This document shows positions 4,051 to 33,435 of a stretch of DNA of 64,000 bases, in pieces. The notes beneath the pieces were generated by a model. It did no database searches. It had not been told where the DNA came from and saw nothing but the letters and a program-made list of their open reading frames with translations. A program made the translations under genes and the position numbers. How positions within the stretch are numbered: the first letter of the stretch is position 1; the number at the start of each line of letters is the position of its first letter. Source of the DNA: Haplodiscus bocki (Eukaryota); assembly GCA_965655095.1 (NCBI GenBank), contig OZ296649.1:64294001-64358000 (forward strand), in the 5' to 3' direction.

Positions 4051-4062
4051 ACACTGGATGTA

Positions 4063-6126: not shown

Positions 6127-6199
6127 TACAATTATTTTACATTAGTTTTATTCCATGTAACCTTCTATACACACACTTTGTCAAACATTCTCTTTAAGA

Positions 6200-11755: not shown

Positions 11756-13250
11756 AGAAACTAGCTAGCTAATTAGCATATTTTGATGTCCTTTCTGTTG
11801 CTTGACACTTTCATTTTTTTCAGTCCTCATACTATTAGCTGAGTTCCTAATCTGATATATAAACAGTCCCGTCTGTTCCCGCGCCATACTTGTATATTGG
11901 TTGTACATATGTTTTTGATGAATGCATTTTCTGGATTGATACACCAAAATCATTTTTTGATAAAAATGGTGAGCGAGCGTATTTGACTGGAAAGTTTGAT
12001 GACTTTCGTCAATTGGTACACCAAGGTATGTAACTATCAACTGCGCTTCTGTCTTCGGAAAGCGGTCATTTTCTGCAGCGTAAAGTGGAATAGAATAGTA
12101 TTCCTTTTCTGGTTATTCAGACTGAGTTTGTTTTTGTAAAATTTCTATTATTCCGTTATCAGGCTATTTATTGTAGTATCATCTGCCAAAAGAGTTCATA
12201 CTTGACGTCGAACAAGCTTGGGGTAAGTAAATCTTTGATGTAAATGAAGAACAGTGCTGCGTCCAGAACTGATCTGTGAGAGCACCTGCTTTGTCTAAAT
12301 TTCCAACAGATTGGTGATTGTTAAAATTCACAAATTGGCCACGGCTATTCAAACAACGACTTTATCGATGAAGTTTTTTCCATCAATCTCCGAACTTACC
12401 TACCTATCAAAATTTAAGGTTTGTGTGTCAAATATTTTGGAGATATCCACAAGTCCTGCTCCTTGAGGAGTCTTCAGTGTTCCATTGTGACGAAATATTT
12501 AGTTCAGGATATCGCAAGTCGCAGGAATATTACCTGTTTTGCTCCTAAAACCAGCTGTCTGTTGTTGATTACTTTGCCATTCGCTTCAAAAACTTTTTGT
12601 TTTTTGTAAAAATTTTTGAAAGTGTTGGTATTATTAAAATGGAGCTGCTACACTAGGGTATTGTTCTTCTCCACTTTCTAGATTTGGGGGATCTTGCTGA
12701 CTTTGAGTTCTCGTGTTTAGCATTCTATTCTGATTTTTTGGTTGACGTAAGGCATAGAAAGTGATACGAAAGTTAAATTTTTGAAAAGATACTTAGAAAT
12801 GCCAATAACGTCTTTATTTTCTGTTTTTCTTGTTTCTTTCGTTGATTTCAATCGTCGTTCCAAAAAAAATTTGAATTGTTGTAGACGTTTTTTTGTCAGA
12901 TTTTTAATGTTTTTTTTATGTTTTTTGTCAAATGTCGAGCTTCGTTGATGAATTGTTTTTTCAAACTTCTTGGTGGTAATTGAAAATCGCTTCCCGTTTC
13001 CCTCGATTACTGAATTATTTCACTGGTCATCTATATCAGGTTCCAAGAAGCTTTTCTATCAGAAGTGAGCCAAGTGTCGATTCGTTCGCAATTGTTTTAT
13101 TTGATCTTGTTCCTCATAATTTTTCCGATTTCCTGGTTTTGTTTTTAGTGCTCACCCGAAACTTCCTCAGCTCTCTCATCCATAGTTTTCAGTTAGACTT
13201 TTTCTTCAAGGAGCTTTTTTAAATTCTTCAATCCAGACTTTGTGATTGCT
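11700..13250 (-). mobile_element. Degenerate CR1/L2-type LINE ORF2 (RT) fragment
   Basis: Minus-strand motifs GLVDISKIFDT (~12430-12460), RGQFVNFNNHQS, SVLDAALFFIYIKDL, LLADDTTI (~12170-12195) and YVQPIYKYG (~11885-11910). The 12870-13250 part recurs at ~45780-46150. Confidence 0.7.
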
Positions 13251-13254
13251 CCTG

Positions 13255-14290
13255 AGTAGTGGAAGAGTGAGCTGATCAAGCGGGGGTTCCTATGCATTAA
13301 GATAGGTTATAGCGAGCCGATTCGAGCCGAGAAGGGAACTCGACCTTAGCCGAGAGCTCTCGGGTGACGTAATACTCTATTCTGATTGGCTAACGATTCG
13401 GGTGACGTAATACTCGATTTTGATTGGCTGCTGAGAGCTCTCGGGTGACGTAATACTCGATTCTGATTGGCTGAGGACTCGGGTGACGTAATACTCGAAC
13501 TTCATTGGCTGACGAGATTGAAATCCGAATGTATCGGCTCAATGTTTTAAGATAGGGTATAGATCGGCTCAATGTATAAAGATAGGGTATAGTTCGGCTC
13601 AATGTATTAAGATAGGGTATAGTTCGGCTCAATGTAATAAGGTAGGGTATAGTTCGGTTCAATGTATAAAGATAGGGAGTGGGCTCAATTTCGGCACTGT
13701 GAGAATACATCGAAAAAGTTTGTTTTGAACTGATTTTTTCTTGCAGGCCCGCCCGCGCGGGTACTATTTATGGCGCGGACTAATTTTGACGCCTGCGGTT
13801 GATTGATACAAGTGCAGGTACTGTTGTGACTGAATGCCATGTGATGAGATACTTCGGCAATGTATTAAGATAGGGTATAGTTCGGTAATGTTTTAAGATA
13901 GGGTATAGTTAGGTAACGTTTTAAGATAGCGTATAGTTTGGTAAGGTATTAAGATGAGTATAGTGCGGTAATGTCTCAAGACAGGGTAAAGTTTGGTAAT
14001 GTATTAAGATAGGGAATAGGTCGGTAATGTATTAAAATAGGGTTTAGTTCGGTAATGTAATCAGTCGGGGTATAGTAGTTCAACGTGAAAAATTGAAATA
14101 TACGTGAAGGTTGTAGCAACCTGACTGTAGCAATGCAAAAGAAAAAATGGTGGAATATAAGTCGCAAGTGTTACCGAATACGATATACCATATATGGAAA
14201 AACCATAAAAGGAAAAACCAGCCATGAAAGGAATTTTCAACCATAAAAGGAGCTGTCAGCCACTTTCCCTCACGCGTGCGGACACTTATG
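13255..14290 (+). repeat. Maverick left TIR with internal tandem arrays
   Basis: Inverted match to 30620-31721 extends to CACTTTCCCTCACGCGTG (~14261-14278). Contains 38/43-bp TGACGTAA+ATTGG units, 30-bp units (~13531-13680) and ~28-bp units (~13850-14060). Confidence 0.95.
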
Positions 14291-14406
14291 TGAATTAATG
14301 CTATGGAAAAGGATTGTAATATGGTTCTGAAAAGCTGATTAGGAACTATAAAAATTAACAAACACATTGTATAACCTGCACATTTATATGAAATGAAAAT
14401 GAAACA

Positions 14407-14800
14407 TTACATGTAATTATTTATGAATGAAAATACATTAACATCGTGAACTCTTGTAAATTTTTGTTGTCGGAATCTGATGGGATGAAAAGCTCCATGT
14501 AGCGTGTAGAAACGGCAAACGCTGGGATTGGACTGTAATGGTTCTGGCATGATCTTTTCATATTGCTGCTTGAGGACACTGTACTTTTTACGAACAAGAG
14601 AGTCTGCAAAATACAATTTTCGACAAGAATTTTCTATCATTATCCAATGATCACCTTGCATAATGCTGAGTGACGTATTTACAATGGCAAAAGTGTCATT
14701 GTCAGGAGTTGGAACATAATCACAGGGAAATGATCCACGGTACCGATTCTTGAGTAGTTATATACGGTTGATTATATGCTTGAGAGAAAAAATATCAAAT
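14407..14800 (-). pseudogene. Maverick adenain-like cysteine protease (PRO)
   Basis: YRGSFPCD...FAIVNT...GDHWIMI...LYFADSL...LQSNPSVC: His, Asp, Gln and Cys in adenoviral protease order. Confidence 0.88.
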
Positions 14801-16200
14801 GTACATATTTTTTCCAACAACCCCAAACTTGTCAACTGCAACCAAAGACATTCGTTTTCCCAATAGAATGAGTTAAGTAACGTGTTCTACAGGAAAAATA
14901 AAGTTTATCTCCAGCCTCAGTGATTCTCCAACTAGTTCTGGGTAATAACAATTTCCAGTAGCTTCTTGCATCGAAGTGAAATCAAATACGAGTACATAGT
15001 GGTCTTTGAAAAAATCAATTGCAATTGAGGGGATATTATGTTTGAAGTTCCTGGTTTTCATTGTCGTAACTTAAAGGCAAAAATTATCAGCAATATCAAA
15101 GTCTACGATTGGCTGACCTCCTCTGAGTATTCTATATTGTCTGAAATCAAATTGTTGATAACAGAATCGGTTTTCAGTGTATGATCCAGTGAATGCAGAG
15201 TTTGTATTCATTGCAATAGCAATCCCACGAGCTGGAGCATTGTGGAAAATGTTTTCTTGATTGAACTGACTTAGTCTGGCAGGAAAGATGAATGTTTTTG
15301 CAAGTGATACCAAATAGTTGAATTCCACAGGAGCATAGGCCAGTATGTCCATTCGTTTCTTGTAATAATAATCCATGAGAGCAATACGACGAGTGTAAAG
15401 TGAGTAATCAACAAATACAAGACTAACGGGGTTGTCGCTAGTCATGTAGAAATTAGGTCTGGCTCTGATTAGTGCTAGCCTGATTTTCATAGGTAGATAT
15501 AGCAATTCAGAAGTGGCTAAAACGTCAACCCCCAATTTAACATACAACATGAAGCTACGGGGTCTGCTAAGCGTTTTCTTTCTTCTTGTGAAAAAAGGTT
15601 CAGACAAAGGGGCCTCCATACTTTCATCACGAAACTCTTCATAGTCGTAGCCCTCGCAAAGCAAAACAATTTTGTATATAGAGATAGCCCCCGTTAGGTT
15701 GTTGGAAATCTAAAGCTTGTGCGCATACAATCCGTCAGAGTTGTAAATTTGCTGATTGTCGATGTACACTTCAACAATGGAAAAACTTGAATGCAAAATA
15801 TTTTTTACATGAGTAACGAGAGGAACTGAAGCCTCTTGTTCCTCTTCCGCCGTCGCTTCCTCATCCACTTTTGCCTCTTGTTTGTGCTCCTTTTTTTACT
15901 TCTTTGGTTTTGTAAGTTTCGTAACCATCACTTTTGACGAATTTCAACTTTAAAGCCAAGTAAGTCTGTGCCAAATCAATGTAATAGTTCCGATCCGTTT
16001 CTAATTCAAACTCTATGCAGTTTTGATCGAGTGAGGTAGTAGGAAAGAATTCTTGTTCGTGGGATAACAAGACATCGTTAACAAATGCGACGTTCTTTCC
16101 AAGATTTCCAGAAACAGCCACAAACGGTTGGTAACCAAAATTGCTCGACTTGGTTAATGAGAAATGTTTGTAGAAATGTCTTTTCGCAACCGACTGATTT
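14795..16200 (-). pseudogene. Maverick major capsid protein (double jelly-roll type), frameshifted
   Basis: ORFs 15861..16253 (IEFELETDRNYYIDLAQTYLALKLK), 15071..15664 and 14873..15061, plus ILHSSFSIVEVYIDNQQI. Size and motifs fit Polinton MCP. Confidence 0.85.
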
Positions 16201-16518
16201 GTTTTGCAGATTTTGTTGGAATGATCTTGCTTGCAATCTTTTCCTGCTACCACTACCCAATTGTTTTCTCAGAGTCTGTCTTCCCATACTCTTTGCAGGT
16301 GTCTTGAAATTCTTTCTACCACTAACAACCCCTGCGACTTCTGCCGCAGCAAATTCCAACAATTCAGCACCTAAACGTTTTGCAGCTGGGACAATTTGTT
16401 CACGCAAAAATGAAATTGCAGTTCTCCCAATTATTTGTGCAAGTGCACTGAATCCTCGCCCACGTTGTCGACCAATATCCCTATAGAATGGAATCTCTAC
16501 TTGTCTTGAAGAAACCAA
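16078..16518 (-). CDS. Small basic virion core/membrane-lytic-like protein with QRGRG motif
   Basis: PFYRDIGRQRGRGFSALAQIIGRTAISFLREQIVPAAK: a QRGxG motif followed by an amphipathic helix, located between the two capsid genes. The start codon is TTG (degenerate). Confidence 0.7.
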   Translation of the reverse strand: MVSSRQVEIPFYRDIGRQRGRGFSALAQIIGRTAISFLREQIVPAAKRLGAELLEFAAAEVAGVVSGRKNFKTPAKSMGRQTLRKQLGSGSRKRLQARSFQQNLQNKSVGCEKTFLQTFLINQVEQFWLPTVCGCFWKSWKERRIC

Positions 16519-16536
16519 CTTGTAACGTCTTTCAGG

Positions 16537-17317
16537 TTAGAAATGAATGTTGGAAGCTTTTCTGAACATAAAAGCAAGACGAGGGAAACCGACACATATA
16601 AAGAGAATTCTATCACCGCTCGTGTCTATCAAGTCAACTTGAAAACTATGAAAGGAATTTTGGGCAGCGGTCTGAATTGCAGGTTGCTATATGTCTGATA
16701 GTTCATGTACTGTCCAGTAGTTATAATGTCTCGAAATAATACGAAAGCAACGCAGCAATGGAGCCTTCGTATCGCCAACGATTTTGTACTCAATCAGGTC
16801 CGTGTATATAATGAGCGAGTGTATGCGGACAATGTGGTAAGCAAAATCTGGCCTGTCAGCTTTTTTCCTCTCAACATCACTCCAAATTCATTGCCAACAT
16901 TACTACCGAAAATGTTTCCCAGGTGCGTACTGAAGAATGCAAGACCAGATCCTTCCTCTGCAAGGTAAATCTCAACTTTTTGCGTTCTTTGAGACACATT
17001 AACTGTGATACATATTTCGCTGTAATTGTATCTTTCTTGAATGAGAGTGTTCAAGGTTTCAACAATATCGGTAATGGAAGGGTAAGGACCAGGTTCCAGA
17101 TAAAACAGTTGTGACGACTTTGAAAGTTTCTTGTCAAAAACTTTCCCTCTGTGACTTTTTGGAACATTGATGTGTAGGATATTTCCGAAATTGCAACCTC
17201 CCATTGACCTTCCAGATTCAGTTGCTCTGGTAAGAAGTTTGTAAAAGAGCTCGGTGTAATGCCTGGAAAAAGTGGCGCAGATGCATTCGAAACCAACTCT
17301 TTTTAAAACGATTCCAT
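16537..17317 (-). pseudogene. Maverick minor capsid (penton-like) protein
   Basis: ELVSNASAPLFPGITPSSFTNFLPEQLNLEGQWEVAISEISY is the typical Polinton minor capsid N-terminus. Several frameshifts follow. Confidence 0.85.
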
Positions 17318-17319
17318 TG

Positions 17320-18261
17320 TTAAATGACTTTGATCAACTCTTTCTGATGAATTTTACCGCGGATAATGTAACCTTGTTCATTCCTTATTGTGGATGTTGG
17401 AGATTTTCTGAAAGAAATTGCAACATTTTCAAAACTTCCTTTGTAAATTTTGGCTTATAACTCTTCCTGAGGGCTAGGTCATACTTCGAGATGCGAACTG
17501 TGTTTCCAAGTCTAAACTCGGGTTTTTCCTATTCTTGTAGTGGCTTGCTGTGCAGATTGGACAAAAAGTCCGAATTGTTGATATTCGTTGGTATTAAGCC
17601 TATCGAACAAGTTTTTTCTGGAATTCACGACTGTGACGAATTGAGACAATTTGTGAATGTACTTGTATGCATATTCTTCCATGTAACAGTAAAGTATTTG
17701 GTTCAGGGATCGTTCTGTACGTTCACCAAATGCAGCCTTGATTTCACTCCTTGTAGAGTAAATTTGTTTTCCTTCACCTTTGCAAAGTTTTCTCAAGTCG
17801 CAAGCAAATTTTTTTCCCCTGTCAACCCAAGCTGCCTTGGGTCGATTATTGTTTATAATCATGGTCAAAAATGCACAAACCCTTTCTTCGGAATTGTTTG
17901 TTTTCATTCCCTTTGCATCTACGGTTCTATCAAAAACGACTTGACGAACTAGCAAATACTTTACACCGTTAGTATCTTTGGCTAGTTTATCAACGCAAGC
18001 TAAGTCAAAACATCAAATTTCATTTCTGAATGTTGCAAACGCGTTCATTTTTTTTTTGAATTTACCTGTGACAATAGTAAATTTTGTATAGGAAGTTTTT
18101 GAATGCAAAAATGGTCTCACCTTTGATAGTGGTAGGTTGCTAATTTTCACTAAATTGCGCACAGAGCCAAAAGCAGCACCACCCTATGTGAACAGCCTTT
18201 GCAGATTCTGTCGTTCGTGTTCTGAAAGGGACCCAGCTTCTTCTCTCTTTGGCTTTGGCAT
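17320..18261 (-). pseudogene. Maverick retroviral-like (rve) integrase
   Basis: GGAAFGSVRNL...VKYLLVRQ...WVDRGKKF...KAAFGERTERSL...VNSR, followed by an SH3-like tail (FRLGNTVRISKYD...KELIKVI*). Confidence 0.9.
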
Positions 18262-18625
18262 TTTGATTCAGAACCAGAGTTGGGGATAGACCAGCAGCGT
18301 CAAGTAAAGTAAAGTGAACTTCAGGAATGTCTGCGTTTTTCCGACAATGTGGTTGAACAAAGTCTGACCGTAAAACTCCAGTTTCCACACCATCCAATTT
18401 TAAAATTTGCGGAATTGAGAGATTGTTACGAGGAAAAGACAAAATTTTGTCAACTAAAGGGTCTGCTTTGGCATACAGTTTTTTGTGTATTTCCTTTTCA
18501 AGCGAATCAATTTGGTACGTAGGATTTTGTGAAAGTTGATACTTTGGAACTTCCTGCTTTGTAACTGACTGGTTATTCAAACTCTTGTTGTATACAGAAG
18601 GAGGAACGCGAACAAACTGCTCCAT
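18140..18625 (-). CDS. Uncharacterised Maverick ORF between ATPase and integrase
   Basis: Open 161-aa ATG-initiated ORF in the co-oriented structural block. Its 3' end overlaps the INT start. Confidence 0.55.
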   Translation of the reverse strand: MEQFVRVPPSVYNKSLNNQSVTKQEVPKYQLSQNPTYQIDSLEKEIHKKLYAKADPLVDKILSFPRNNLSIPQILKLDGVETGVLRSDFVQPHCRKNADIPEVHFTLLDAAGLSPTLVLNQNAKAKERRSWVPFRTRTTESAKAVHIGWCCFWLCAQFSEN

Positions 18626-19582
18626 GTCAACCCAAATGGTTAATGACGGGGGGAGTAACGACTTTTATGATTTGTAACCATTTTTTGGATGCCAGATCCT
18701 CTCTTGTTTGCTTCCAAGTGACTTTTCTAGAAAGAGCACTCGAACTTCGTTTTTAAATTCTGTCACGTGATGCCTTTTTCTGCTTTGCAGGTTTCTTTGA
18801 GAAGATTTACTATACATTCGCAGAGGAACTTGGTAAACTCTTTTGTGTGAGACTGAAGGAAAAGACCTTTGGATTTGTGGGAAACTGATTGGAACACCTG
18901 AAAATAGAGAGATCTTGTGATTTCATCGTCCAAAAATTAGGACTGTTTCAGCTGATCCAGGATTAAAAACTTTGAGGGAATTGATCCGGTGTTTGTACAA
19001 TACCGTAATAGATCGTCTGTTCGCGGTGACAAGTCAATCAATAAGTGGCCTTAGGGAACAGATGTTGCGTCTCGATACCAGTCAACTAGCTCTGATCCGA
19101 GGCCCAAATTGTGCACTAAGCGTACTGACTTGCATCAGATCACGGAGAGACCTGAAAAGAAAAATGTGCGTGTTTTGGAGCTCAACGTCTCGCCCATCTT
19201 TGCTTTGATGAATCAAGTTTGGGTTAATGAAAATAGAACTGAATCCACGATGTCTTCCAGCAGTTGCAATTTCAACAAAAGTTTTTGATTTGCAAATCTT
19301 TTCACATCAAACGTCAAAGAATAACGAGTATTTTGTACGGTTGTTTTTTAACGAATCTATATAGTTAAAGTTCACACCTTGAACAAAATCAAAAATTTCA
19401 ATCTCTTCTTGCATAACATCAGAAAGTGGCTGAGAGTTCTGATAAAAAAATTAAATTTTGTCAAATTTTGGTTAAAGGGTTCCATTTTTGAGCCAATTAT
19501 AAATAAGTTGTGGTGTTTCCCCTCTTGGTGGGTCCTACCAATGATATAAAGACGCATTATTTGTAGAAATTAACTTGTTCAT
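18626..19582 (-). pseudogene. Maverick A32/FtsK-like DNA-packaging ATPase
   Basis: Frameshifted Walker A (FISLVGP...GK), Walker B region (TKYSLFFD), IATAGRHRG, and the downstream DVELQNTHIFL...DWYRDATSVP...LLIDLSPRTDDRLRY. Confidence 0.88.
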
Positions 19583-19796
19583 AGTTTTGCTGAGGGTAAA
19601 ATGTATCCCGCTGCACTACAGAGAAAGCCGAACCTAACAGTGGATTCGTCACAAGTTTATGAAAGATAAATTCTCTAAAAGCAGCCAAAGTTATTGAGCA
19701 AAACCATAGAAAGTTGTGAAAAAAACACAAATAAAGACCTGGAATAGGTTTGTCCCAAACCGGCTCACAATTTTCTCTCTCGATTGCTGTGGTCAA
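19557..19796 (-). CDS. Small hydrophobic Maverick ORF (MTTAIEREN...)
   Basis: 79-aa ORF directly upstream of the ATPase with a hydrophobic central stretch. TTG start. Confidence 0.4.
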   Translation of the reverse strand: MTTAIERENCEPVWDKPIPGLYLCFFHNFLWFCSITLAAFREFIFHKLVTNPLLGSAFSVVQRDTFYPQQNYEQVNFYK

Positions 19797-20769
19797 AGAC
19801 TATTTTACCTAGAATAAAAAGATCTTTTTCATCAGTCATCTCTCTTGTATGCTCAATTTTTCTGTATTGAATCTCCAAGAAAAAGGTTGAATAAATATAA
19901 AAAAGGAGGGCAGAAAGAGTTTTACGGAAAAACAAAGAGTAGGCCAGTCACGTGATCGAGCAAACATAAATTTGTTCCTCGCCCAAACTTGTAACAGTAG
20001 CCTGGACCTTTGCCACTACGTGCCCACACTGCTCCAACAGCATCAGGTGGTATTGCATGTAGTCTAAACACTATGAAATCACAAAACGAAAACTCCAAGT
20101 GCGAGTCCTTAGAACCAATGGTTCCACCAAATTTAAATCTTAGTCTAACTCACGTAAAGAAAGTCTAGAATCCCAACAGAAACATGCTTTTAGAAATAGG
20201 TTTTTGAGAACACTATTGTGTTCAAATGACTATTCTAATCCCGTGTACAATCGGAGATTGCTCCTTAGAAAGAGAACATCCATTCTTGACGGAATTTGTT
20301 TCATTTATGAACAGTTGTTTCGTCCAGTACAATGCACCGCATTTAGAATATTTCAATGTAGTGCAATGGATAAACTCGTTTTGCCAAGAGCAACTGGTAT
20401 TCTGTCCACTTCAGAAAATTTTCATTATCTTTGAAGTACAAACTGTTTCAGTAACGGTACACGACAATAATCAACTTGTCTGTATCAGTCTTGAAGTTTA
20501 CACTTGCTTTTCAACTGCCACTATAAAATTTCCATTATAGGCTAGAAATTTGTTCTTTAAAATCAGTCTTTTCAAAGTCTGGCATTTGTTGCATTTCAAC
20601 TACAGTTAGTGTAAGTTTTTCGGGAGATGTTTCGGGAGTTGTAAGTACAACATGATAAAAACCCAAATTTTATTTTAGCTTGAGAAAAAGGTTTCTATTA
20701 TCTCCACTGTTCCAACTCATTCTGATTCGAGCAGAAAGGAAAATCATAAAGAGTACACAGACCAAATTT

Positions 20770-21348
20770 TTTTAAAGGAGATTTCAAATGGGTTGATTAG
20801 TAAAAAGTTTATCATAAACAGAATCCATTAAATCAAGTAGGTAGATAAATTCCTCAAATTTATAAATCACATAAACAAATTGTTGAAAATTCTCTTTTCT
20901 TCTGCTTTGCGAACAATCGGACTTGATCAACTGAATTCTCTCGCTTTTCCACATGATGCCGCAGCAAAGTTACACAATACTTTCTATTTGCTTGGTCCAC
21001 TACATCCATCAGCTTGTCAGCCAGTTTGAGTTTTTCATCCATGTCTTTGGACATTGTTGGTATCAGCATTAGTGACAAGTTTTCCTCTCTGCCAAAGTTT
21101 TCTGCTGAAATGACCAGCTGGTTCCTCAATCGTATGAACTGGTTGTCATCTGTTTCTCCCATTGTGAGACTTTGGACCAGGCGAAATTCTCTGTTGTTGT
21201 CCCTCTTGATCACTTTAAGTTCAACATCCGATTAGTTGGAGTCATTTTTGGACCAAAAAAATTGACCAAAAGTGCCTTGACAATTTCCAAAGTCCACATA
21301 ACCGGTAAAAATTAGCTTGTCCTAGCAAGCAGTAGTTTTGTGAGCCAT
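20770..21348 (-). pseudogene. Maverick cargo gene with two similar halves, possibly PC4/Whirly-like ssDNA-binding
   Basis: MAHKTTAC*DKL...DVELKVIKRDNNREFRLVQSLTMGETDDNQFIRLRNQL...QVRLFAK...FQQFVYVIYKFEEFIYLLDLMDSV, about 190 aa with stops and a frameshift. The fold call is inference. Confidence 0.45.
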
Positions 21349-21534
21349 GGGTGACGGAGAAAGCACACTGGTAGCTGAAAGAAATGAATAATTTCTGACA
21401 AAGGAAGATAAGGAATGGTCAAGGAGCAGGAAACTGTTGCTTTTCTGCGCTGCTTTTTTGGTTGTTGTCACGTGACAGTTCCATTTGTGGAACATCTTTT
21501 CTTTTTGGCATTTTAATTTTAATTCTCAGATCCT

Positions 21535-21978
21535 TTGATCAGAAAAAGACTCAACAATCAAATGGCAGCTGTACTGTCACAATTGATTCCCAGCTTCTAC
21601 ACAAAATATTCAAAAAACACAACTTTTGTTTCGACAAACACTTATGAAAAATACATTGTGAGTAAAGAGTACTATATCGCTCGGCACGATGACAAGATGT
21701 GTTTCATACCCAATTGCAGATATCACATTATACTATTAGGCGACATTAAAGAGTTGTTACAAAAATTAGTTGCTTTTTGGCTCAACTACCAACACGTGGG
21801 CTGTCTGTTTACACTTCTCAAGTTCCAAATCAGTGGCAAAATTGTTGTCATGACTGAACAACTCTTTGACAGTGTGCAGAGGGCAGTTCATTTCAACGAC
21901 CAAAACAGAGGAGTGGACAGAATACCCGGCATCGCGAAAGAGAGACTCTTGAGGAAAAAGTACAAAAACATTTGTTGA
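21535..21978 (+). CDS. Uncharacterised Maverick cargo ORF (opposite strand to its neighbours)
   Basis: 147-aa open frame with an internal ATG (MAAVLSQLIP...). No recognisable motif. Confidence 0.45.
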   Translation: MIRKRLNNQMAAVLSQLIPSFYTKYSKNTTFVSTNTYEKYIVSKEYYIARHDDKMCFIPNCRYHIILLGDIKELLQKLVAFWLNYQHVGCLFTLLKFQISGKIVVMTEQLFDSVQRAVHFNDQNRGVDRIPGIAKERLLRKKYKNIC

Positions 21979-22154
21979 GCTCCTCTAAAAAACTGAATCG
22001 AGGCAAACTAGTGGATCAGTCCTTGCAGACAGAATTGAACAAGTTAAAAAGACCAAGTTCGAGTTTTAACTGCGAAAAGTTGCAGATGGTCTTCTAGATT
22101 GTCACGGTTTTTACACTAGTAGTTTAATAGCTTTTAAAATAAAATCTTTCTAAA

Positions 22155-22340
22155 CTAACCTTTTTCTGAGGTTGAATAAGACTTGTAGAAATGAATTGGT
22201 AGTGCAAACGATACAGTTATCACACCCATCAAAAACTCGATTGCCATGAAGAACGCAATAACCAAAAACTTACTACCAAACATGAGACAAAAACATGCCA
22301 CACACTCGTAAAAATTCTCTTTACCCCAGGCCGTTGTCAT
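22155..22340 (-). CDS. Small putative membrane protein (MTTAWGKEN...)
   Basis: 61-aa ATG ORF with a long hydrophobic, Cys-containing stretch. Confidence 0.45.
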   Translation of the reverse strand: MTTAWGKENFYECVACFCLMFGSKFLVIAFFMAIEFLMGVITVSFALPIHFYKSYSTSEKG

Positions 22341-22464
22341 TTTTCAGCAAGTTGCTCTTTTTAATCCAGCATGTTTCTTTTCCAGCAAGGTGCTAATATT
22401 TTGGTAAAATTTGAGCGAGTATTTGAATTAACGGTTTAAAAAGCAAGACTTCAATATAAAATTT

Positions 22465-22900
22465 TTAAAACGTTTCAGATTTTGAATGAAAAAAAATACA
22501 ACTCGTCAGGTTTCGAGTTACAAAAACGAAATGCGTTAGATTTTGAATTGGACATTTTTCGACACCTCAGAGTTTGAAAAAGTTTTCATTCAAAAACTCA
22601 CGTTCTGGTTCGTTTTACTCCGTGAAACTGACATTAGGTGCATTTTTTGTGCCTTTTTGAAGAGCATGTTTTTCAATTGAAACTTTTAAAACGTGTCAGA
22701 TTTTGAATTGAGAAAAACACAATGTGTCAGATTTTGAATTGAAAAAAATGGAACGCGTTAAATTTTGAATTCATTAAAAGACAACGCGTCAGATTTTGAA
22801 TTAAAAAGTCTTCGTCTTGTCAGATTTTGAAGTAAAATATCTACAACGTGTCAGAGTGTAAAATAAAAAGTTTTACCTCGTCAGATTTTGAATCAAAAGT
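22465..22900 (+). repeat. ~31-bp tandem array inside the Maverick
   Basis: About 11 units of AACGCGTCAGATTTTGAATT plus an A-rich linker, in two blocks (4 and 7 units) separated by ~100 bp. Confidence 0.85.
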
Positions 22901-23337
22901 TTTTCATTTTTTTAGAACTTCTAACCTGGTCTCACCATTTGCACTTTTCACATCGCTTTCCTCCATATAAGCATGTGCTATTACAGCCCACAATATCTTC
23001 GTCAACTAGATAACAGCATTTGCCACCTATTCAAACAATACTTCTTGTACTTTTTCGCAAGCACCTTGATTTTTGATTTTGGCTATGGTGTCTTACGTTA
23101 TCCTCTGTATGGGCTTAACATATGCACAAAATTGCGGCAACTAGTGAAAATATTGATATCGATACTGAAACTGCTTTTGTCTCACACATGTCTGACTAGT
23201 TTTTGAAAAATGTTATGATAAATTGAAACACGTTAATTACAATTATTAAAACACAAACACGGTAATACCTAGTGAAACAAAATTCTATAAACATAATCAG
23301 CAAGAATTTGCTATTCCTGTTCCAAATGGACGACTTC

Positions 23338-23814
23338 TCAGCAATGCAGGGGGTCGTGTTGGTCTCGCAGAGACTGGTGTTGTTGTTGGAGGAGAGTTCT
23401 TCTCTTCCACTTCATCGAGCACAATGGGGTTTTCTGCCGAACCCCCACGTCCAAGTCGTCAACCGCTGTTGGTGAACAAGGGGTATCAATGCCCAATCTC
23501 AGGACATCGTCTACATTCAGCTGAGCATTTTCCCAGTAGAATTCAACATCGGGCAGATCTGCAGACACTGATACCCGCTTGTTTCCATGTCTTGTGCACC
23601 TACTCTTGAAAGCATTTCGTCCATCATTTCCATAGTCCCATCCTGGTTGGGGATAACTAGAACCCTCGCTAGATGGTTGTTCAGAAAGTCTTGTCATTGG
23701 GACATCAACAAGCTCTAAGCTGCCAGAAGAATTTCTTGTGAACTTGTTGTCATTTCCTGGACGACATCCACTACAGTCAGAGTCACTGAATCTGTTCCAA
23801 AATCTAGAGGCCAC
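23338..23814 (-). CDS. Ser/Asp-rich low-complexity Maverick cargo ORF
   Basis: 158-aa open frame, co-oriented with the cargo block. No motif recognised. Confidence 0.4.
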   Translation of the reverse strand: MASRFWNRFSDSDCSGCRPGNDNKFTRNSSGSLELVDVPMTRLSEQPSSEGSSYPQPGWDYGNDGRNAFKSRCTRHGNKRVSVSADLPDVEFYWENAQLNVDDVLRLGIDTPCSPTAVDDLDVGVRQKTPLCSMKWKRRTLLQQQHQSLRDQHDPLHC

Positions 23815-24039
23815 TCAATACGGTCGTTGGAGACTGAGAAAATCATTTTGCTTTGCCGTAGACTGAAATTATATAAAATGAGCATGTAAATGGAATTTCG
23901 CTCAACTGCATCAACCAATGGGGTGTCCACACGATTATGCCATAAATGGAATGACTTTTGCCTTTTTTGGCACAAGTTAGGGTGTGCTTGATTGTGATTG
24001 GCAGAGAAATGTCTTCATGGAGATGGCTTTTTTCGTAGC

Positions 24040-24810
24040 CTTAACTCGTCTTCCTTGCCAAGCAATATGTACCGTCACCAGCAAACAATATAATTGTCGG
24101 CTCTTGGTCCTTGAAAGGAATATTCAAAACGTGGCAGCAGGTTTTCAAATTTTTGCAGTTGTAGAAACTAGACGCTTCATTGGTTGAAATGTGAACACAC
24201 TTATCATTTCTATATGTTGGAGAATGCACATCTCCACTGGTCTCTTGTACCTTATTGTCCTCACACAATTCTTGCATTCTATATTTGGTTGATTGAAATG
24301 GGAATTTGATGAACAATTGTCTGTCGGGTAACAAATTCATCCTTTATTAGCAATGAAAAGCGTTGTTTTGTCTGTTTTTGTCGTCTTTACGTGCTCTTGT
24401 AACCTAAAAAGGAACTTTGTCAACAAACAACCACGCTCAGCATTTTCCACAATCATAAATGGATCTCGGAGTTGTTACATAACCGTCAACAGATTCGCAT
24501 CTCTCTCTGTTGAAACAATACTTGCAAGAACAAAACACATCTCCAAAAACATCTTGAATTGAGTTTAGATTCTCTTCAAAAATGTGAACCGCTTGGCCAA
24601 ACGAAAAGAAAATGGAATTTCATTGATCTTCAAAAGGAAAATTGCGCAACTGCCACACAGTTTCGCATTCCCGACATTGATAATCGTTTCTGCTGAGAGA
24701 TTGAAAAGTCTTTTTGAGCAGGCAAAGTTTACCCAAACACAATACACGTCCCCAATGAGAAAAAAGGTGCTTTTGTCATACTCACAATCAGGGGTGAATG
24801 AGCTACACAT
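24040..24810 (-). pseudogene. Cys-rich Maverick cargo gene(s), frameshifted
   Basis: ORFs 24565..24897 and 24041..24340 plus intervening frames contain CGSC, CGKC and CKNLKTCCH. Confidence 0.4.
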
Positions 24811-25425
24811 CGTAATTGCTCTCAATTTGGTCACACTTCTTTGCAACATTATATCCGTTGTAGAGATGGTGAATTTCGAAATGGTTATGGTTGACAATTT
24901 CTGTTAGAATAAATTGATTGCCGTGTAGTTCAATTTTTTTGATGGAACATACGCAGGAATTGTTTTTCCCAAATTGGAACATAAAACACGTTTGTTTATG
25001 TGGATGTTCAATGATATCGTTATAGTAATGAGTAAGGAGATTGTCTTTTGACTTTGTAGATCCAATCTCAACTTTGGGCTTCGGTAGGGGAATCTGTACT
25101 TGCTTGCTAGAGTGATTCAAAAAATTGAGAAAGTCGCGTGGACTGTCGACCAAAGAAGTGAGTGCTTTATAGAGATGTTTAGCTCTTCATGAGGGATAAA
25201 ACGCTGCTGCGTCTTTAAATTGCAAAACTGGAACAACTTGATTGCAAACAATTTTTTGTTGGAACCTCTGCTATCTCGCGCTATTCGATACTTGGACTGG
25301 GAATTGTCAAGAATGTTGTGGTAAAAAAAACTATCTACGTCGGTTTTGTGCAGAAACTCCTCAGGTATTTCTTCGTAAAATGAATAAAATTTGCAGAAAC
25401 TGGGAAAATGATTTCTGACAGACAT
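24803..25425 (-). pseudogene. Second two-repeat cargo gene, possibly PC4-like
   Basis: ORFs 25117..25428 and 24803..25153 join by a frameshift. The halves HNILDN...FAIKLFQF...EELNIS and NDIIEH...SIKKIEL...TEIVN are mutually similar. Confidence 0.45.
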
Positions 25426-25499
25426 CAATTTCTTTTAGTCAGTAAATTTTGCAAAATGAAATTATTGAAGGTGCAGCGGTAAAATTATTGCGGATTTCG

Positions 25500-26340
25500 A
25501 GTTTCGAACAAAATATTGATTTTAGCCAATCAGATTCAAACATATCTCTTTCGATAAAATGTTATGAAGCCATGGTTTAGCGGTTAAAAGCTTTGATTGG
25601 TTCACTAGGTAACGAGAAGAACTTACGTTGATATTCCCATGAATCGGAAGTTTTTGACTTCTACACTACACAATCTGTACAAAAATTAATTTTTGTTCCT
25701 CATATTGAAGTTTTTGTGATTGACAGCTGAAACCTAAAAAAAGCAAGACAAACAAATTACATTTCTGAGCCAAGCTGTACAGGGAAACTCCTTCCCCTTG
25801 AGTATTTTTCTGAGGAAGGCTGTCTCCGTAAAAGGTTAAATTGTTCCAATAGAGTAGTTTTATCAGACAAGTTGTCACCTTGCCGAGGTCATTTGTTCCA
25901 CTTGCGTAGTTTTATCAGACAGGCTGTCAACCTGTCGAAGGAATTTGTTCCACTTGAGCACTTTTATCACTTTCGCTGCCCCGGACTGCTTTTCTTTTTG
26001 AAAAAATTTCTCAGGCAACCTGTCACCACTTTAGGGGTTTTTGTTCCACATGAAAAAGTTTTCACAGACAAGTGGTATCAATACCTTAATTAAAATTTTT
26101 CTGATATAACGTCGGTTTTCAAGACAAAAAAGAATGATTCACAGCTCTTGTGGTATTTCCTTCTATGGTTAGTCTCACTTTTTGTGGTTGGTCTCACGTT
26201 CCACTGAAGTTTCCGTATATGGGAAAAATTATTTAAAATACTTCCTGCAATTTTTTTGCCGTTATTTCTTTTGCATTGCTACAGCCAAGTAGCTTCAAGC
26301 TTTAAATTCAATTTGATTCGTTAAACAACTTTCAGTGAAA
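25500..26340. promoter_or_regulatory. Putative divergent promoter region with ~52-bp direct repeats
   Basis: Lies between the minus-strand block and pPolB. Has CCAAT boxes (~25525, ~25596) and AGTTTTATCAGACA...ATTTGTTCCACTTG repeated twice plus a partial third (~25856-26075). Confidence 0.5.
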
Positions 26341-29300
26341 TGCCCTTGTTAATCCCGAAAGAAAAAATTACATTGAAAATTGTCGTACCCGACCTGCAAG
26401 AAACACTATTGTACGGCACCAGAAGAGTTTTTGTGCTGGTACAATGTTTTGGACCCACTGTCCCGTTTTCTCTACAAAATTCCAAAATGATCTAAATTAT
26501 CATATTGCTAGGAAGCACAGCATCCGAAATCTTGATATTACATTCAGTTTTAAACTTTGTTATCAAGAGTTTTCAGGATTTCACGCTCTACGACAACATA
26601 GAAACGCCCAGCATGGCTTTCCTGTCAAGACAGCAAATGTTGATCCGGACGAAGTTGATGATGCGAAATTTAAAGAGGAGTTGCGCTCATGTCAACATTC
26701 ATAAATTGAAAGAGCGAGACACAAAAGTTTCAATTATGCAATAGATAACTTCAATGTAAAATTTCTGGACGAGAAAATTAATCGCTCTTTCAGTCACTTG
26801 GAATGCGCAGCGGAAGCAAATCTATATTTTGGATTCATTTTGGAAAACTTTGAAGTTGGAAGTTACAGATATTTTCAAGCACGCGAGAACAATACACTGC
26901 TGTATCGATCCAAACTGGTGTGCATCAAGGAGGACCTGACAAAACTAAAATATATCCTCATCAAAACTCACGTCATCAAGTTGTGTACAGGGGAGAGGAT
27001 GAATACAAATTGGAGATTCTACAAATTGATGAACTTAACTGGGCTAAGCTCTTTCCTCAAAGACGTATCTTCGGGCTGCAAGGATGCTGTCTTGCCGGAA
27101 CGTCTTCTAAAAAACCACAAAATCAACTCTCTCACGTTTGAGCAGAAGACAAAACAGCCATATAATGACAACTTGTGTCTTTTTTGTGCATTTGCTCTAT
27201 ATTAACACGGGCATCAAAAACTGGAAGCAGAAACGTCAAAAACTTTCATTGCATCCATCAATCAGATGGATCGATCAAAAATTAATCAGCTCCAAGGAGT
27301 CCGTATGAACGACTTTCCCGTAGCGGAGGAAAAAGATACAAAGAATATTCATTTGGATGATTCAAGGGAATATTATTAGTGCACTAGCAAGACGAAGTTT
27401 GCAGAAATTTGAAAATGCTGCGCGATTACTCAGATACAACAATAACAAATGCTATGTGAACAATATCAATGCCGTATTAAAATCTTTTTGTTGCCCCAGT
27501 TGTGATAATTTCTTCAACAAAGCGTCAAATTTGGAGCGTCATGAAACGACATGCAGAGATCGTGTTGAAAATTTGTATCCAAAAAACTTTTATCAATTTC
27601 GAGAAACTCTCGTTGATAAATTTTTACTGTCTTGGAAGCACGTACACTAGTGAGCAAAAACTCTCCAAAAATTTGGCTGTTTTCGATTTTGAATTGGTTT
27701 GTATTGAAGAAAACAGCCTCAAAGACACAAACACAACAACATGGATAGGTAAACAAATACCAATATCACTATCCATCTCCTAAAATGCTATGAAAAAGCC
27801 GCTTTTTCTCTGTAATTCTGACCCTCACTATCTTGTTGCGTCTTTTATTGGAGTGCTATAGGGACTCGCTTTGCAAAGTAAAGCACAAACGGAAGTGATG
27901 TTTCCTGATAATGAAACGTAGACAAAGATTCGATTGGGTAGCATTCATGAAAAATTGAATCAACGCCAGAAACAGGAGCGAACAATTGAAGCTAGACGAG
28001 TGTGAAGATGAAAAGTGCGCCTCTACTCAATTCGTGCAGATGCAAAATAATCAGAGATATGACTGCAAAAACAACTAGAACGTCATTGTAATATTTTACC
28101 AAACTTTCGCTTCAACAGTTCAAAAAACGACCTCAATTCAATCAAATCTTATCTGTTACCGATTCTCACCAATGAACGCGACATCGAACTTACTGTTATC
28201 AAGAAACCCAGTCAGTTCATCTCATTCAGGTTTGGCGATATTCGGCTTTTGGATATAATGAAGTTTCCTGGCGGAGCGACGCGTCTTGATTCATTCTTGA
28301 AAGTTTACAAAACCTCAGCGACCAGAAGTCATTTCCCTTACGAATGGTTTGATGACGCTGAAAAGTTGCAGAAAATGGAACTTCTTCCATATGATAATTT
28401 CTTCAGTAAACTGCGCAGTTGCAACCCCCTCGAAGCAGAATACAAAAAGTACGTGAACCTTTTGAGAAATGGAAGGACTACAGATCAAGCTGTGACTAAA
28501 TTAAACCTAACAAAACCGCCACCAACTGAAATCAAGAACTATGAGTACCTGCAAAAAGTTTGGCAGCGAGAACAATTGAGCACGTTCAGAAAAGTTTTGC
28601 AATGGTAGAATAACGAAGACGTTGTTCCTATTTTGGAGGCAATGCGAAGAATCATTGCCTTTTACCACGGCAAAGACATTGATATGCTGAAGTGAGGTTG
28701 CACACTTTCAAACCTGGCTAATATTTGCCTGCACAAACCAACAGACGCTAATTTCTACCCCTTGACTCAAAGAGATGAAGATTTTTTGGGGAAGATCAGA
28801 GAAGAAGTTGTTGGTGGTCCATCTTCCGTTTTCACACGCAAAACAGTTGTTGATGAAACCTTTAATCGGATATCAGAAATTATTTGCAAGTCCATTAGTG
28901 GAATTGATTCTAGTCAACTTAAAACATACTCAGTTTGTCAACCCATGCCGTTGGGATCTGGATCCAGAAACCAAGATTCACACCTCTACAAAACAAACTC
29001 GTAGCTTTGAAAAAATGGGCATGTCCTTCTTGCAACGACAGACACCTGAAAGTAAAAACGAAAGTTTTTATACAACTGGTAGACAGAAGAAAACTGACTC
29101 CTTTAGTGTGGCTGGATTTTGATCACACACTGCTGTACAGTATTTGAAGCTATGGGTTGCTTTTGTCATTTCTGTCATTGCCAAGAAGTGCGGCCGTTGC
29201 TGACTGAAGAGGACATGCAACGTGGAACTGAAAAGAAAGACCTTGATACGCTCAGACGAGACTACATTCAAAAAAAAAGATTTACTGTAATAGAAATTTG

Positions 29301-30540
29301 GAAATGTGAATGGTTGAGACTGTTGAAAACAAAGAATGCAATGAAACAGCATATTCGGGGCAAGTTCCCCTACAGAGTTTCGGTCAGATATTTTCAGCTC
29401 CTGAATGCAATAAAGGAAAGTACATTAATTAGCTAAGTACGATGCGACCTTCAAGTTCATGAAAACATGCAAAACAAATTTACCAGTTTCCTGCCAATCT
29501 TTAAAAACCTTTTCGTCAGAAAAAACGATATAAAGGATGTTATGCCGACCAGGAAGGCTTAATATCTATACCTCAGAAAATGCTGATTTCCAGTTTTTCA
29601 CTCAACAAAGGAACACTAATTACTCCGTTTCTCGTAATCTATCTGGATTGGGGTCTGGTCTGCACAAAAATATACCGCTTTGTTGAATATATTCCAAAGA
29701 AATGTTCCAACGACTTCGTGCAATCAGTACTCGACAAAAAGAGGAAAGGGGATGAAAATCCAAATTCCAGTGTAGTCGCAGATACAATGAAATTGCCAGC
29801 TAACAGTACATATGATTACCAAAAAATGGATAGGAGTCGACACACTGTGAAAAAGTATCTTAGTGATGAAAAGACGCTAGCAGCCATCAACAACGAAAAG
29901 TTTAAACGTTCCGACTTTTAAATGAACAGTTATATGAAGTCGAGCTTGCCAAATCTGAGATTGAGCACAGAGAACCAAATAATATTGGGTTTTTCAATCT
30001 GCGGTTGAGATTTTTGGAGCTGTAATACACCTTTTTGACAAGTACATCGATGTTACAAAGTATAAGGAGATAGAAAAGAATACAGAATCGCTGTATTCAG
30101 CATTGGCAGAGCAACACTTGTTTGATTGTGTTCGGCCAGAAATGAAGGAACACTGGGAAGGTTTGCGAAGTTGAGACTCCACGGATTTATTTTTGCCGAT
30201 GAAACAAGAAATTTTTTGCCTCGTACTTACTGCGCTAAGCAAAAGAAGCATAATAAAAGAGAACTTGGACTTTTCAAAGAAGATTTCAGATGTACTGAAA
30301 TGCTATGTTTATGTAGCAAGACTTACTGCTGCTTTGATTTTGGTTTCTACAAGTCTAAATTAAGCAGTGAAACACTCAACAAACGGATTTTGGAACAGAG
30401 CGGTGGTGGTCCATTGGAGAAAGATAGGAGAGTTCTAGAGGAAAAAATCAAAATTACGTCAACAAAAAGAGCTTTTGCGAACACAAAACTATGTTGTTGC
30501 AATTTATGAGCCAACCAGGAGAGGGCTGTGATTGTATCTT
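26340..30540 (+). pseudogene. Protein-primed family B DNA polymerase (pPolB) with N-terminal zinc fingers and a VSR-like insert
   Basis: ExoI AVFDFE (~27680), ExoII FNSSKNDL (~28111), FPYEWFD, IREEVVGGPS, motif A GIDSSQL, motif B KLPANSTY (for KxxxNSxYG), motif C NTESLY (for DTDS). Numerous stops and frameshifts. Confidence 0.95.
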
Positions 30541-30619
30541 GATGTATCCGTTAAGTTTTGCACAATCTAATTAAATTTTCAAAAATTTAATACACTCTTT
30601 TTACATAACAATAAGTCAA

Positions 30620-31721
30620 ATGAGTATCCACACGCGTGAGGGAAAGTGACTGACAGCTCCCCTTATGGTCAAAAATTCCTTTTACGGCTGGTTTTTCCTT
30701 TTATGGTCTTTCCATATATGGTACATTGTATTCGGTAACTCTTGCTACATATATTCGACCATTTTTTCTTCTGCACTGCCACATTCAGGTTGCTAAAACC
30801 TTCACGTATATTTCAAATTTTACCGTTGAACTAATATACCGCAGTCCAATACATTACCGAATTATACCCCTTTTTAAATCATTTCCGACCAATTCCTTTC
30901 ATAATATATTACCGAACGATAACCCATCTTAACACGTTGCCGAACTATATCCTGTCTCAATAAATTACCGAACTATACCCTATCTTAGTACATTACCGAA
31001 CCTTACCCCTTTCTAATACATTGCCGAAGTATCTTTTCACAAGGCTTTCAGGCACAACAGTATCCGCATGCGTAAAAATAACCGCAAGCGTCATAATTGG
31101 TCCGCGCCGTAATAATTATCCGCGCGGGCGGGCCTGCAGGAAAAACTCAGTTCAAAAAAAAATTTCGAAATGGTGTCACAGTGCCGAAATTGAGCCCACT
31201 CCCTACCTTTTTACATTCAACCGAACTATACCCAACCTTGATACATTGAGCGAAACTTTACCCTATTTTAATACATCGAGCCGATTTGTACCCAATCTTA
31301 ATACATTGAGGCGAACTATAGCCTATCTCAGTACCCTGAGCCAAATACACTCGGATTCCAATCTCGTCAGCTAATCAAGTTCGAGTATTACGTCAGCCGA
31401 GTCGTCAGCCAATCGGAATCGAGTATTACGTCACAAGAGAGCTCTCAGCGGTAAATGAAATTCAAGTGTTACGTCAGTCTAGTCGTCAGCAAATCAGAAT
31501 CCATTATTACGTCACCCGAGAGCTCTCGGCAGCCAATCAAATTCGAATAATACGTCACCCGAGACGTCAGACAATCAGAATCGAGTAATACGTCAGCGGA
31601 GAGCTCTCGGCTAGGGTCAAGCTCCCTTCTGGGCTCTCGGTTCGAGTCAATTCGCTATAGCCTATCATAATACATAACGACCTCAACCCCCCTCGCCTGA
31701 TCAACTCACTCTTCTACTACT
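30620..31721 (-). repeat. Maverick right TIR
   Basis: Reverse complement of the left TIR with the same arrays. Ends in ACTACT at 31721. Confidence 0.95.
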
Positions 31722-31879
31722 CTTTTGGTTTTCATTTTGCTGACGGGTTTTACTTTTTCTAGATTTTCTTCAGTTTTGATCAGCACTTTATGAAAAACAA
31801 AATGCTCGACTACTTCAGTGGTTTTTGTTCCAAGGTCATCGAAATCAACGACTTTTCAAAAACAAATTACACTACCAAC

Positions 31880-33116: not shown

Positions 33117-33435
33117 TGTTGGCGCCAGAGACATGGAAAACAACGAAACTTGAAAACTTATCTGTCTTAGCAAAATTGTTTGCTGATTTGAGTTGACCCC
33201 AAAATGAAGTCCCAACAATTGTCTTGCAAGTGGTAATCTCATTTTGTCGTTTCCCGGCTTTTTTGTCACTATAAAAAACAGTGAAAATTACTCCTGACAC
33301 TACCCTCACCTTGAAATCAGTCATGGTTGTCCCCTAATGAGGCTGGAGACAAACACTTATGACAAAACCTGATAATCTCCTGTTCTTTCGTTGTGCCAAG
33401 TTTCAACCCAATAAGACACATAAAAAATTAATTTC
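33117..33435 (+). repeat. BEL/Pao 5' LTR (3' end approximate)
   Basis: Starts TGTTGGCGCCAGAGACA and aligns with 41386-41709. AATAAG lies near the end. Flanks GTCCC / GTCCG are a possible 5-bp TSD. Confidence 0.7.

What the first reader, a model, noticed from the sequence alone, without database searches (positions are those of the whole stretch)
13255..31721. Complete endogenous polintovirus (Maverick) with full virion module and ~6 kb of unassigned cargo
Seen: both termini, a degenerate TSD and all core genes. The layout is one co-oriented block (ATPase-ORF-INT-mCP-QRGRG-MCP-PRO) diverging from pPolB. Established: this gene set defines Polintons/adintoviruses, which are thought to form virions. 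Inference: the cargo at 19.8-25.4 kb matches nothing I recognise, so this may be an undescribed lineage. This copy is dead, so the system would need reconstruction from other copies.
Basis: partly seen in the sequence, partly recalled or inferred. Interest (0 to 1): 0.8.

Follow-up and report, generated by a model that had tools for sequence, protein, structure and literature searches.

The report
Dead Polinton with family accessory genes
This is an old, broken copy of a well-known kind of virus-like jumping DNA (Polinton/Maverick); its 'mystery cargo' is mostly genes shared with related copies, one or two of which may bind single-stranded DNA.

Summary
The element is real: 13,255-31,721 (18,467 bp), (AGT)2 ends, ~1.1-kb terminal inverted repeats now 83% identical, flanks matching at 4 of 6 bases. 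It has the standard Maverick gene set; two ORFs, not one, lie between ATPase and integrase. The polymerase probably carries a Vsr insert. Polymerase, ATPase, integrase, both capsid genes and protease are broken. The capsid protein has 2,784 relatives, including young clusters of 307 and 530 sequences. The cargo is not all orphan: four genes (2.5 of 6.8 kb) have hundreds of relatives. They are a 192-aa two-repeat protein whose low-confidence model has beta4-alpha repeats and ranks Pur-alpha first in Foldseek (E 2e-4; weak TM, not confirmed by VIA), a second two-repeat 208-aa protein, a triple zinc-ribbon-like protein and an acidic protein. An intact 138-aa ORF stays unexplained. Best reading: an ordinary Polinton family with a probable PUR/Whirly-type nucleic-acid-binding helper; 'SSDBP' labels already appear on published adintovirus maps. 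Repbase/Dfam comparison, host and virions were not testable.

The parts
13249..13254 (.). Left copy of the putative 6-bp target-site duplication (4 of 6 match to the right copy)
   Evidence: chance of >=4/6 is 0.05
13255..14367 (+). Left terminal inverted repeat: (AGT)2 end, internal ~40/81-, 30- and 28-bp arrays, four TGACGTAA sites
14410..14796 (-). PRO, adenain-like cysteine protease; one stop in frame
   Evidence: Pfam Peptidase_C5 E 0.0034, below the curated cut-off; 40% to the intact PRO-position ORF of L001
14804..16157 (-). Major capsid protein (MCP); a frame change and three stops
   Evidence: 2,784 relatives at E<=1e-10; 77% to P0013. The name rests on position and recalled motifs; the fold was not modelled; no Pfam or PDB match
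16237..16530 (-). QRGRG ORF, at the PW (Cupiennin) position between mCP and MCP
   Evidence: 54% to the same-position ORF of L001; position as in PMC8097293; name by position only
16540..17345 (-). Minor capsid protein (penton position), spread over three frames
   Evidence: 35-70% to the intact 270-aa ORF of L001; one gene away from MCP, as described in PMC4028283
17321..18200 (-). rve-type integrase, broken; ends directly against mCP with no room for a chromodomain (start approximate)
   Evidence: Pfam rve E 0.023, below cut-off; frames
18143..18664 (-). ORF at the PZ position (174 open codons)
   Evidence: named by position against PMC8097293, not by sequence
18665..18940 (-).
   Evidence: named by position only
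18930..19570 (-). Packaging ATPase, heavily broken
   Evidence: Walker A/B-like stretches read by eye (motifs recalled); no Pfam hit; longest open frame 74 aa
19560..19976 (-). Candidate ORF G, three stops; unassigned, relatives not searched
   Evidence: no family
20073..20540 (+). Candidate ORF F, two stops; unassigned, relatives not searched
   Evidence: no family
20775..21348 (-). Cargo gene E: 192-aa family with two internal repeats; probable type I PC4-like (PUR/Whirly) nucleic-acid-binding protein; broken here
   Evidence: 687 relatives, 60 of the 120 listed are 191-192 aa; repeats; model and fold searches
21562..21978 (+). ORF D: intact 138-aa basic protein, unexplained
   Evidence: about 0.05 such open frames expected by chance in 6.8 kb; no Pfam or NCBIfam hit, PHROG E 0.076 only, Atlas best 0.87
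22155..22343 (-). Small candidate ORF C5 with one hydrophobic segment; length is within chance
22435..22916 (+). Non-coding 31-bp repeat array inside the accessory region
   Evidence: 8 of the 10 window matches to its core motif lie here, 2.0 expected in the whole window; no match elsewhere in the window
22926..23189 (-). Candidate ORF C4: N-terminal hydrophobic segment and cysteine-rich tail, three stops; unassigned
   Evidence: likeness to an L001 ORF not significant
23300..23846 (-). Cargo gene C3: acidic, proline-rich ~180-aa protein, broken; conserved among copies, function unassigned
   Evidence: relatives P0218, P0202, P0245 and others map here
24029..24810 (-). Cargo gene C2: three ~70-aa cysteine units (zinc-ribbon-like), broken
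   Evidence: most of the 150 listed relatives map here; units align at z 7-8, 0 of 500 shuffles
24806..25425 (-). Cargo gene C1: ~208-aa protein with two internal repeats, possible paralogue of E; one frame change here
   Evidence: full-length relative P0205, 65% and 54% over the two halves; repeats z 5.1, weaker by profile; model poor
26339..30560 (+). Protein-primed DNA polymerase B with N-terminal zinc fingers and a probable Vsr-like insert (~29,100-29,320); many stops and frame changes
   Evidence: zf-C2H2 E 0.0066; the only 3 PDB matches are E. coli Vsr, E 0.25-0.34; polymerase motifs read by eye (recalled)
30542..31721 (-). Right terminal inverted repeat ending in (ACT)2
31722..31727 (.). 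Right copy of the putative target-site duplication

Best explanation
An old, inactivated, full-length insertion of a Polinton/Maverick family that is abundant in at least one sequenced genome set. Shown: ends, TIRs, gene order, decay, family membership of four accessory genes. From established knowledge of the class: an active copy is excised or released as a linear DNA, copied from both TIRs by its protein-primed polymerase through strand displacement, re-inserted by the rve integrase with a 6-bp duplication, and probably packaged by ATPase, MCP, penton and protease. Inferred here: the accessory region between the two diverging modules encodes replication and host-interface helpers. Gene E (probability about 0.55) is a single-chain type I PC4-like (PUR/Whirly) protein that coats or melts displaced single strands or binds viral RNA; C1 is a diverged second protein of the same kind (about 0.35); C2 is a zinc-ribbon regulator in the place where 'Oncoid' genes lie. 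The repeated CRE-like sites in the TIRs probably bind host factors for transcription or origin firing (inferred from a recalled motif).
For: Ends, TIRs and size fit the class (PMC8097293 passages: 12.7-24.6 kb, TIR 46-1,447 bp, (AGT)2 ends, 6-bp TSD, modules ATP-PM-PZ and INT-mCP-PW-MCP-PRO). The order mCP-QRGRG-MCP-PRO is intact in an independent contig at 54% MCP identity. MCP has 2,784 relatives, with 90% clusters of 530, 307, 67 and 56 members; the window copy has the longest terminal branch of 51 sequences (0.285, next 0.157). Cargo travels with MCP: 5 contig lengths are shared by the two top-120 lists against a mean of 0.07 (max 2) in 400 shifted controls. E: 60 of 120 relatives keep 191-192 aa; two repeats (z 4.7; 24 of 25 and 23 of 25 above the 99th null percentile); the model gives beta-beta-beta-beta-alpha twice, the definition of a type I PC4-like domain (PMC7549692 passages); 8 of the first 9 Foldseek rows are Pur-alpha repeats I-II, E 2e-4 to 5.6e-3, with WHY1, PBF-2 and MRP1/2 lower. 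Other protein-primed replicons encode their own SSBs (PMC8276246 passages).
Confidence: 0.8

Rival explanations
1. Same element, but E and C1 are transcription or RNA regulators, or protein-binding adaptors with a generic beta-sheet plus helix fold, and play no part in replication.
Against: Only the PUR/Whirly family explains both repeats in one alignment of ~175 columns; VIA rows cover one repeat and lie at background Z.
Confidence: 0.35
2. The accessory region is a mosaic of captured host DNA or nested small transposons, not an inherited part of the family.
For: It is the least recognisable part; it holds a tandem array; ORFs D, F, G, C4 and C5 were not searched for relatives.
Against: E, C1, C2 and C3 have hundreds of relatives; relatives read through C1-C2-C3 in the same order; E shares contigs with MCP; no inverted repeat pair inside the region is among the 25 longest in the window.
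Confidence: 0.08
3. A categorically distinct virus lineage whose cargo is a new functional module, for example an entry or envelope system.
For: D is intact and unmatched; C4 and C5 have hydrophobic segments; L001 also carries two small hydrophobic ORFs inside its virion module.
Against: Core set and order are canonical; no large glycoprotein-sized ORF exists in the region; C4 and C5 do not match the L001 ORFs beyond chance; C5's length is within chance.
Confidence: 0.07

Closest known systems
Vertebrate Mavericks (Barreat and Katzourakis 2021, PMC8097293; passages and part 2 of 8 read)
   Same: Eight core genes plus PM in the order ATP-PM-PZ and INT-mCP-PW-MCP-PRO; (AGT)2 ends; 6-bp TSD; size and TIR length in range; 96% of loci degraded.
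   Different: There pPolB is in one module with ATP and PZ and modules mostly converge; here ATP-PM-PZ is joined to the INT block, pPolB alone points away, and one accessory region lies between. Intact copies there reach 38 per genome; MCP clusters here hold up to 530 sequences (number of genomes unknown).
Beta-class adintovirus virion module (Starrett et al. 2021, PMC8502044; parts 1-2 of 6, passages, text of Suppl. Fig. S2)
   Same: Integrase, Penton, Cupiennin, Hexon, Adenain, FtsK, PolB; CXXC 'Oncoid' genes upstream of PolB; maps for Hydra and Stylophora carry an SSDBP label.
   Different: No conserved LxCxE in C2; no room for an integrase chromodomain; OTU domain not detected; the fold and sequence of the published SSDBP could not be seen, so its relation to E is unknown.
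pPolB2 Polintons with VSR insert in marine molluscs and a marine nematode (Jeong et al. 2023, 10.1101/2023.08.22.554363; passages)
   Same: A Vsr-like stretch inside the polymerase (weak E).
   Different: No tree was built; placement in that subgroup is inferred from the insert alone.
Type I PC4-like proteins: Pur-alpha repeats I-II, Whirly, MRP1/MRP2 (PMC7549692; passages)
   Same: Two beta4-alpha repeats in one ~150-190-aa chain; top Foldseek family for E.
   Different: No detectable sequence similarity; helix swap not seen in the low-confidence model; binding untested.

Membership tests
Polinton/Maverick | Long TIRs with (AGT)2 or (AG)3 ends; size about 13-25 kb | tested here: met
   ranges
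Polinton/Maverick | 5-8 bp target-site duplication | tested here: inconclusive
   4 of 6 match, chance 0.05; no empty site; decay matches the 17% TIR mismatch
Polinton/Maverick | Protein-primed DNA polymerase B | tested here: met
   4.2-kb broken ORF with exonuclease and polymerase motifs read by eye (motifs recalled); no curated Pfam hit on the fragments
Polinton/Maverick | rve integrase | tested here: met
   Pfam rve E 0.023, below cut-off, on a decayed fragment; expected position
Polinton/Maverick | Packaging ATPase and adenain-like protease | tested here: met
   Peptidase_C5 E 0.0034; ATPase by recalled motifs
Polintovirus (virion-capable) | Double jelly-roll MCP and single jelly-roll penton | tested here: inconclusive
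   conserved ORFs at the expected positions; no PDB or Pfam sequence match; folds not modelled
Polintovirus (virion-capable) | Particles or free linear genomes | not testable with these tools
   needs host material or reads
Adintoviruses (as defined in PMC11071296, passages) | Integrase with C-terminal chromodomain | tested here: not met
   the integrase frame stops at about 17,321, against the mCP start; no chromo hit; single decayed copy
Adintoviruses (as defined in PMC11071296, passages) | N-terminal OTU-like domain on PolB | tested here: inconclusive
   no OTU hit on fragments; not modelled
Adintoviruses (as defined in PMC11071296, passages) | Hexon reciprocally recognisable by BLASTp to reference adintoviruses | not testable with these tools
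   reference sequences not in the readable part of the supplement; none of the 120 listed MCP hits has a name
Oncoid genes | Paired CXXC, upstream of PolB | tested here: met
   C2
Oncoid genes | LxCxE Rb-binding motif | tested here: not met
   2 of 150 relatives hold an LxCxD/E-like string, neither LxCxE in a conserved place; none in the C1 or C2 region of the window
Type I PC4-like (PUR/Whirly) - gene E | beta4-alpha-linker-beta4-alpha in one chain | tested here: met
   secondary structure of the model (low confidence) and sequence duplication
Type I PC4-like (PUR/Whirly) - gene E | Helix-swapped tertiary fold matching solved members | tested here: inconclusive
Type I PC4-like (PUR/Whirly) - gene E | Binds ssDNA or RNA | not testable with these tools
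   bench assay needed
Type I PC4-like (PUR/Whirly) - gene C1 | Two beta4-alpha repeats | tested here: inconclusive
   duplication z 5.1; only the second repeat modelled as beta4-alpha
Catalogued Repbase/Dfam Maverick family | Match to a library entry | not testable with these tools
   no such library here

The most novel reading that the evidence does not exclude
A recently and massively expanded Polinton family, with hundreds of near-identical capsid genes, carries two diverged single-chain PUR/Whirly-type proteins as its own ssDNA-binding or helix-melting machinery. That would name the SSB of a Polinton lineage, in a fold I found no report of for this class, and offer an unusually rich host in which to look for natural Polinton particles.
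Probability: 0.3. Interest if true: 0.62.

Novelty: new member of a known kind. Interest (0 to 1): 0.33.

Why it matters
Complete but dead Mavericks are common, so the locus itself is ordinary. Two things could matter. Protein-primed strand displacement needs an ssDNA-binding protein, and none is among the eight core Maverick genes; a PUR/Whirly-type accessory gene would be a testable candidate. My searches found no paper that names such a fold in Polintons: Polinton + PC4 gave 1 paper, not read; Polinton/single-stranded DNA-binding/Whirly listed 20 plant Whirly papers of 135; polinto/ssDNA-binding/SSB listed 25 of 652, 2 with 'polinto'. An SSDBP label of unknown fold is on two published maps. 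Second, MCP clusters of 307 and 530 sequences within 90% identity point to a young, large family, a good place to look for the particles that have not been observed for Mavericks (PMC8097293 abstract listing).

Full report
Observation. The element spans 13,255-31,721. Its terminal 17-mer occurs only at the two ends. The TIRs are about 1.1-1.2 kb with internal arrays; 936 of 1,130 aligned columns are identical, K2P 0.196. TIRs are expected to be near-identical on insertion (established knowledge), so the copy is old. The 6-bp flanks match at 4 of 6 bases; random pairs do so 5% of the time, and a neighbouring repeat did not supply an empty site. Each TIR holds four TGACGTAA sites (8 of 10 in the window, 1.7 expected); the likeness to ATF/CRE sites is recalled.

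Core genes. Six-frame reading gives, on the minus strand, ATPase, two ORFs, integrase, minor capsid, the QRGRG ORF, major capsid and protease; pPolB runs the other way. This is the order ATP-PM-PZ and INT-mCP-PW-MCP-PRO of PMC8097293 (passages), joined into one block. PM, PZ and PW are named by position only. Library support is weak because the fragments are decayed: Peptidase_C5 E 0.0034, rve E 0.023, zf-C2H2 E 0.0066, all below cut-off. ATPase and polymerase motifs were read by eye from recall. The middle of pPolB has only three PDB matches, all E. coli Vsr (E 0.25-0.34), which recalls the VSR-bearing pPolB2 of marine molluscs and a marine nematode (passages). Polymerase, ATPase, integrase, both capsid genes and protease carry stops or frame changes, so the copy is dead. 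The integrase stops against the penton gene, leaving no room for the chromodomain that PMC11071296 (passages) lists for adintoviruses; I file it as Polinton/Maverick, not as an adintovirus.

Family. A 340-residue MCP piece has 2,784 relatives at E<=1e-10 among 3,738 candidates; the 120 listed are all from one source archive, unnamed, 64-77% identical, and 51 of 120 are 440-456 aa. Clusters of 530, 307, 67 and 56 members show young subfamilies, though member lengths and the number of genomes are unknown. In a tree of 50 of those 51 relatives (P0010, a rearranged copy, left out) plus the window piece, the window copy has the longest terminal branch and sits with a star-like older group (midpoint root, partial sequence). 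One scan of prokaryotic genomes found 1 locus among 91 pattern matches: a 4-kb contig in a MAG, probably mis-binned (inference), with intact mCP, QRGRG ORF, MCP (54%), two small hydrophobic ORFs and PRO.

Accessory region. Between the ATPase and pPolB starts lie 6,779 bp. One 629-codon frame found 906 relatives at 50% clustering; mapping the 150 listed back to the element resolves three genes. C1 (~208 aa) has a full-length relative, P0205. C2 has three cysteine units that align at z 7-8; some relatives appear to have two units. C3 is acidic and proline-rich. No full-length C2 or C3 was among the 150. Gene E has 687 relatives among 691 candidates; 60 of the 120 listed are 191-192 aa. Five contig lengths are shared by the MCP and E lists, against 0.07 by chance. 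These four genes cover 2,518 bp. Copies also share non-coding DNA, so relatives prove inheritance, not function; length conservation and conserved repeats argue for coding. ORF D is intact (138 aa; 0.05 expected by chance) and unmatched. A 31-bp array fills about 0.5 kb.

Fold of E and C1. Both are internal duplications (z 4.7 and 5.1, 0 of 500 shuffles); profiles confirm E strongly and C1 weakly. The model of natural relative P0290 (121 aligned sequences, mostly close) has pLDDT 45.6 but gives beta4-alpha twice, the type I PC4-like topology of Pur-alpha, Whirly and MRP1/2 (PMC7549692 passages). Foldseek puts Pur-alpha repeats I-II in 8 of the first 9 rows; all 3 matches at E<=0.001 are Pur-alpha; WHY1, PBF-2 and MRP1/2 follow at E 0.02-0.08. 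Against this: TM 0.20-0.24, rmsd 17-19 A; VIA's best rows are secretion chaperones at background Z (7.2), with WHY1 at 4.8 and Borrelia Pur-alpha at 4.3 on the second look; no sequence match. The C1 model (21 sequences) built only its second repeat that way and matched nothing. Kinship of E and C1 is suggestive only. I put E as PUR/Whirly-type at about 0.55 and C1 at about 0.35.

Mechanism. The life cycle (linear intermediate, protein-primed copying, integrase insertion, probable packaging) is taken from what is known of the class, not shown here. Protein-primed replicons encode diverse SSBs of their own (PMC8276246 passages), and Whirly and Pur-alpha bind single strands and melt duplexes, so E is most simply a helper for strand displacement; a transcription or RNA role is the main rival. 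C2 fits the place and CXXC pattern of Oncoid genes (PMC8502044) but lacks a conserved LxCxE.

Known or new. Gene set, ends and size are canonical; accessory regions are expected; most genomic Mavericks are fossils. SSDBP labels are on the Hydra and Stylophora maps in Suppl. Fig. S2 of PMC8502044. That supplement was cut, and its sequence file and slides could not be read; they may show that E is already annotated. The supplement of PMC8097293 was only listed, and bioRxiv supplements were not seen. Repbase/Dfam, reference trees, the host, and viral and metagenome contigs stayed unchecked. Verdict: a new member of a known kind, interest 0.33, with one worthwhile lead: PUR/Whirly-like accessory proteins in a large, partly young family.

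Noticed in passing
window 33,119-43,540: Decayed BEL/Pao retrotransposon region (DUF1759 E 4e-4, Peptidase_A17 E 4e-4) with a 2,156-bp direct repeat at 96% (33,119-35,267 and 41,388-43,540). The repeat may be a tandem duplication and not an LTR pair.
   Followed up: partly
window 43,653-45,380 (+) and 49,446-50,916 (-): A LINE-type endonuclease fragment (Exo_endo_phos E 5e-8) and a DUF659, hAT-like transposase fragment (E 3e-7).
   Followed up: no
window 4,059-6,130 and 9,636-11,763: Two foldback elements with long inverted arms at 85-91% identity.
   Followed up: no
window 12,879-13,247 and 45,790-46,149: A dispersed repeat (81%) whose match ends 7 bp before the Polinton's left end; it does not continue on the right flank.
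   Followed up: yes
window 22,435-22,916 and 25,841-25,969: A 31-bp array inside the accessory region and a 52-bp x2.5 repeat in the spacer before pPolB; possible cis-acting sites, unexplained.
   Followed up: partly
relatives P0157, P0166, P0168, P0173, P0230, P0247: Zinc-ribbon-like C2 relatives that seem to have two units instead of three, suggesting unit gain or loss between subfamilies (rough motif count).
   Followed up: partly
L001 60-3,468: An intact Polinton virion module on a 4-kb contig binned in a bacterial MAG, with two small hydrophobic ORFs between MCP and protease; probably mis-binned eukaryotic or viral DNA.
   Followed up: partly
window 21,562-21,978 (+): ORF D is fully open from Met to stop while most neighbours are broken; chance, or separate maintenance.
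   Followed up: partly
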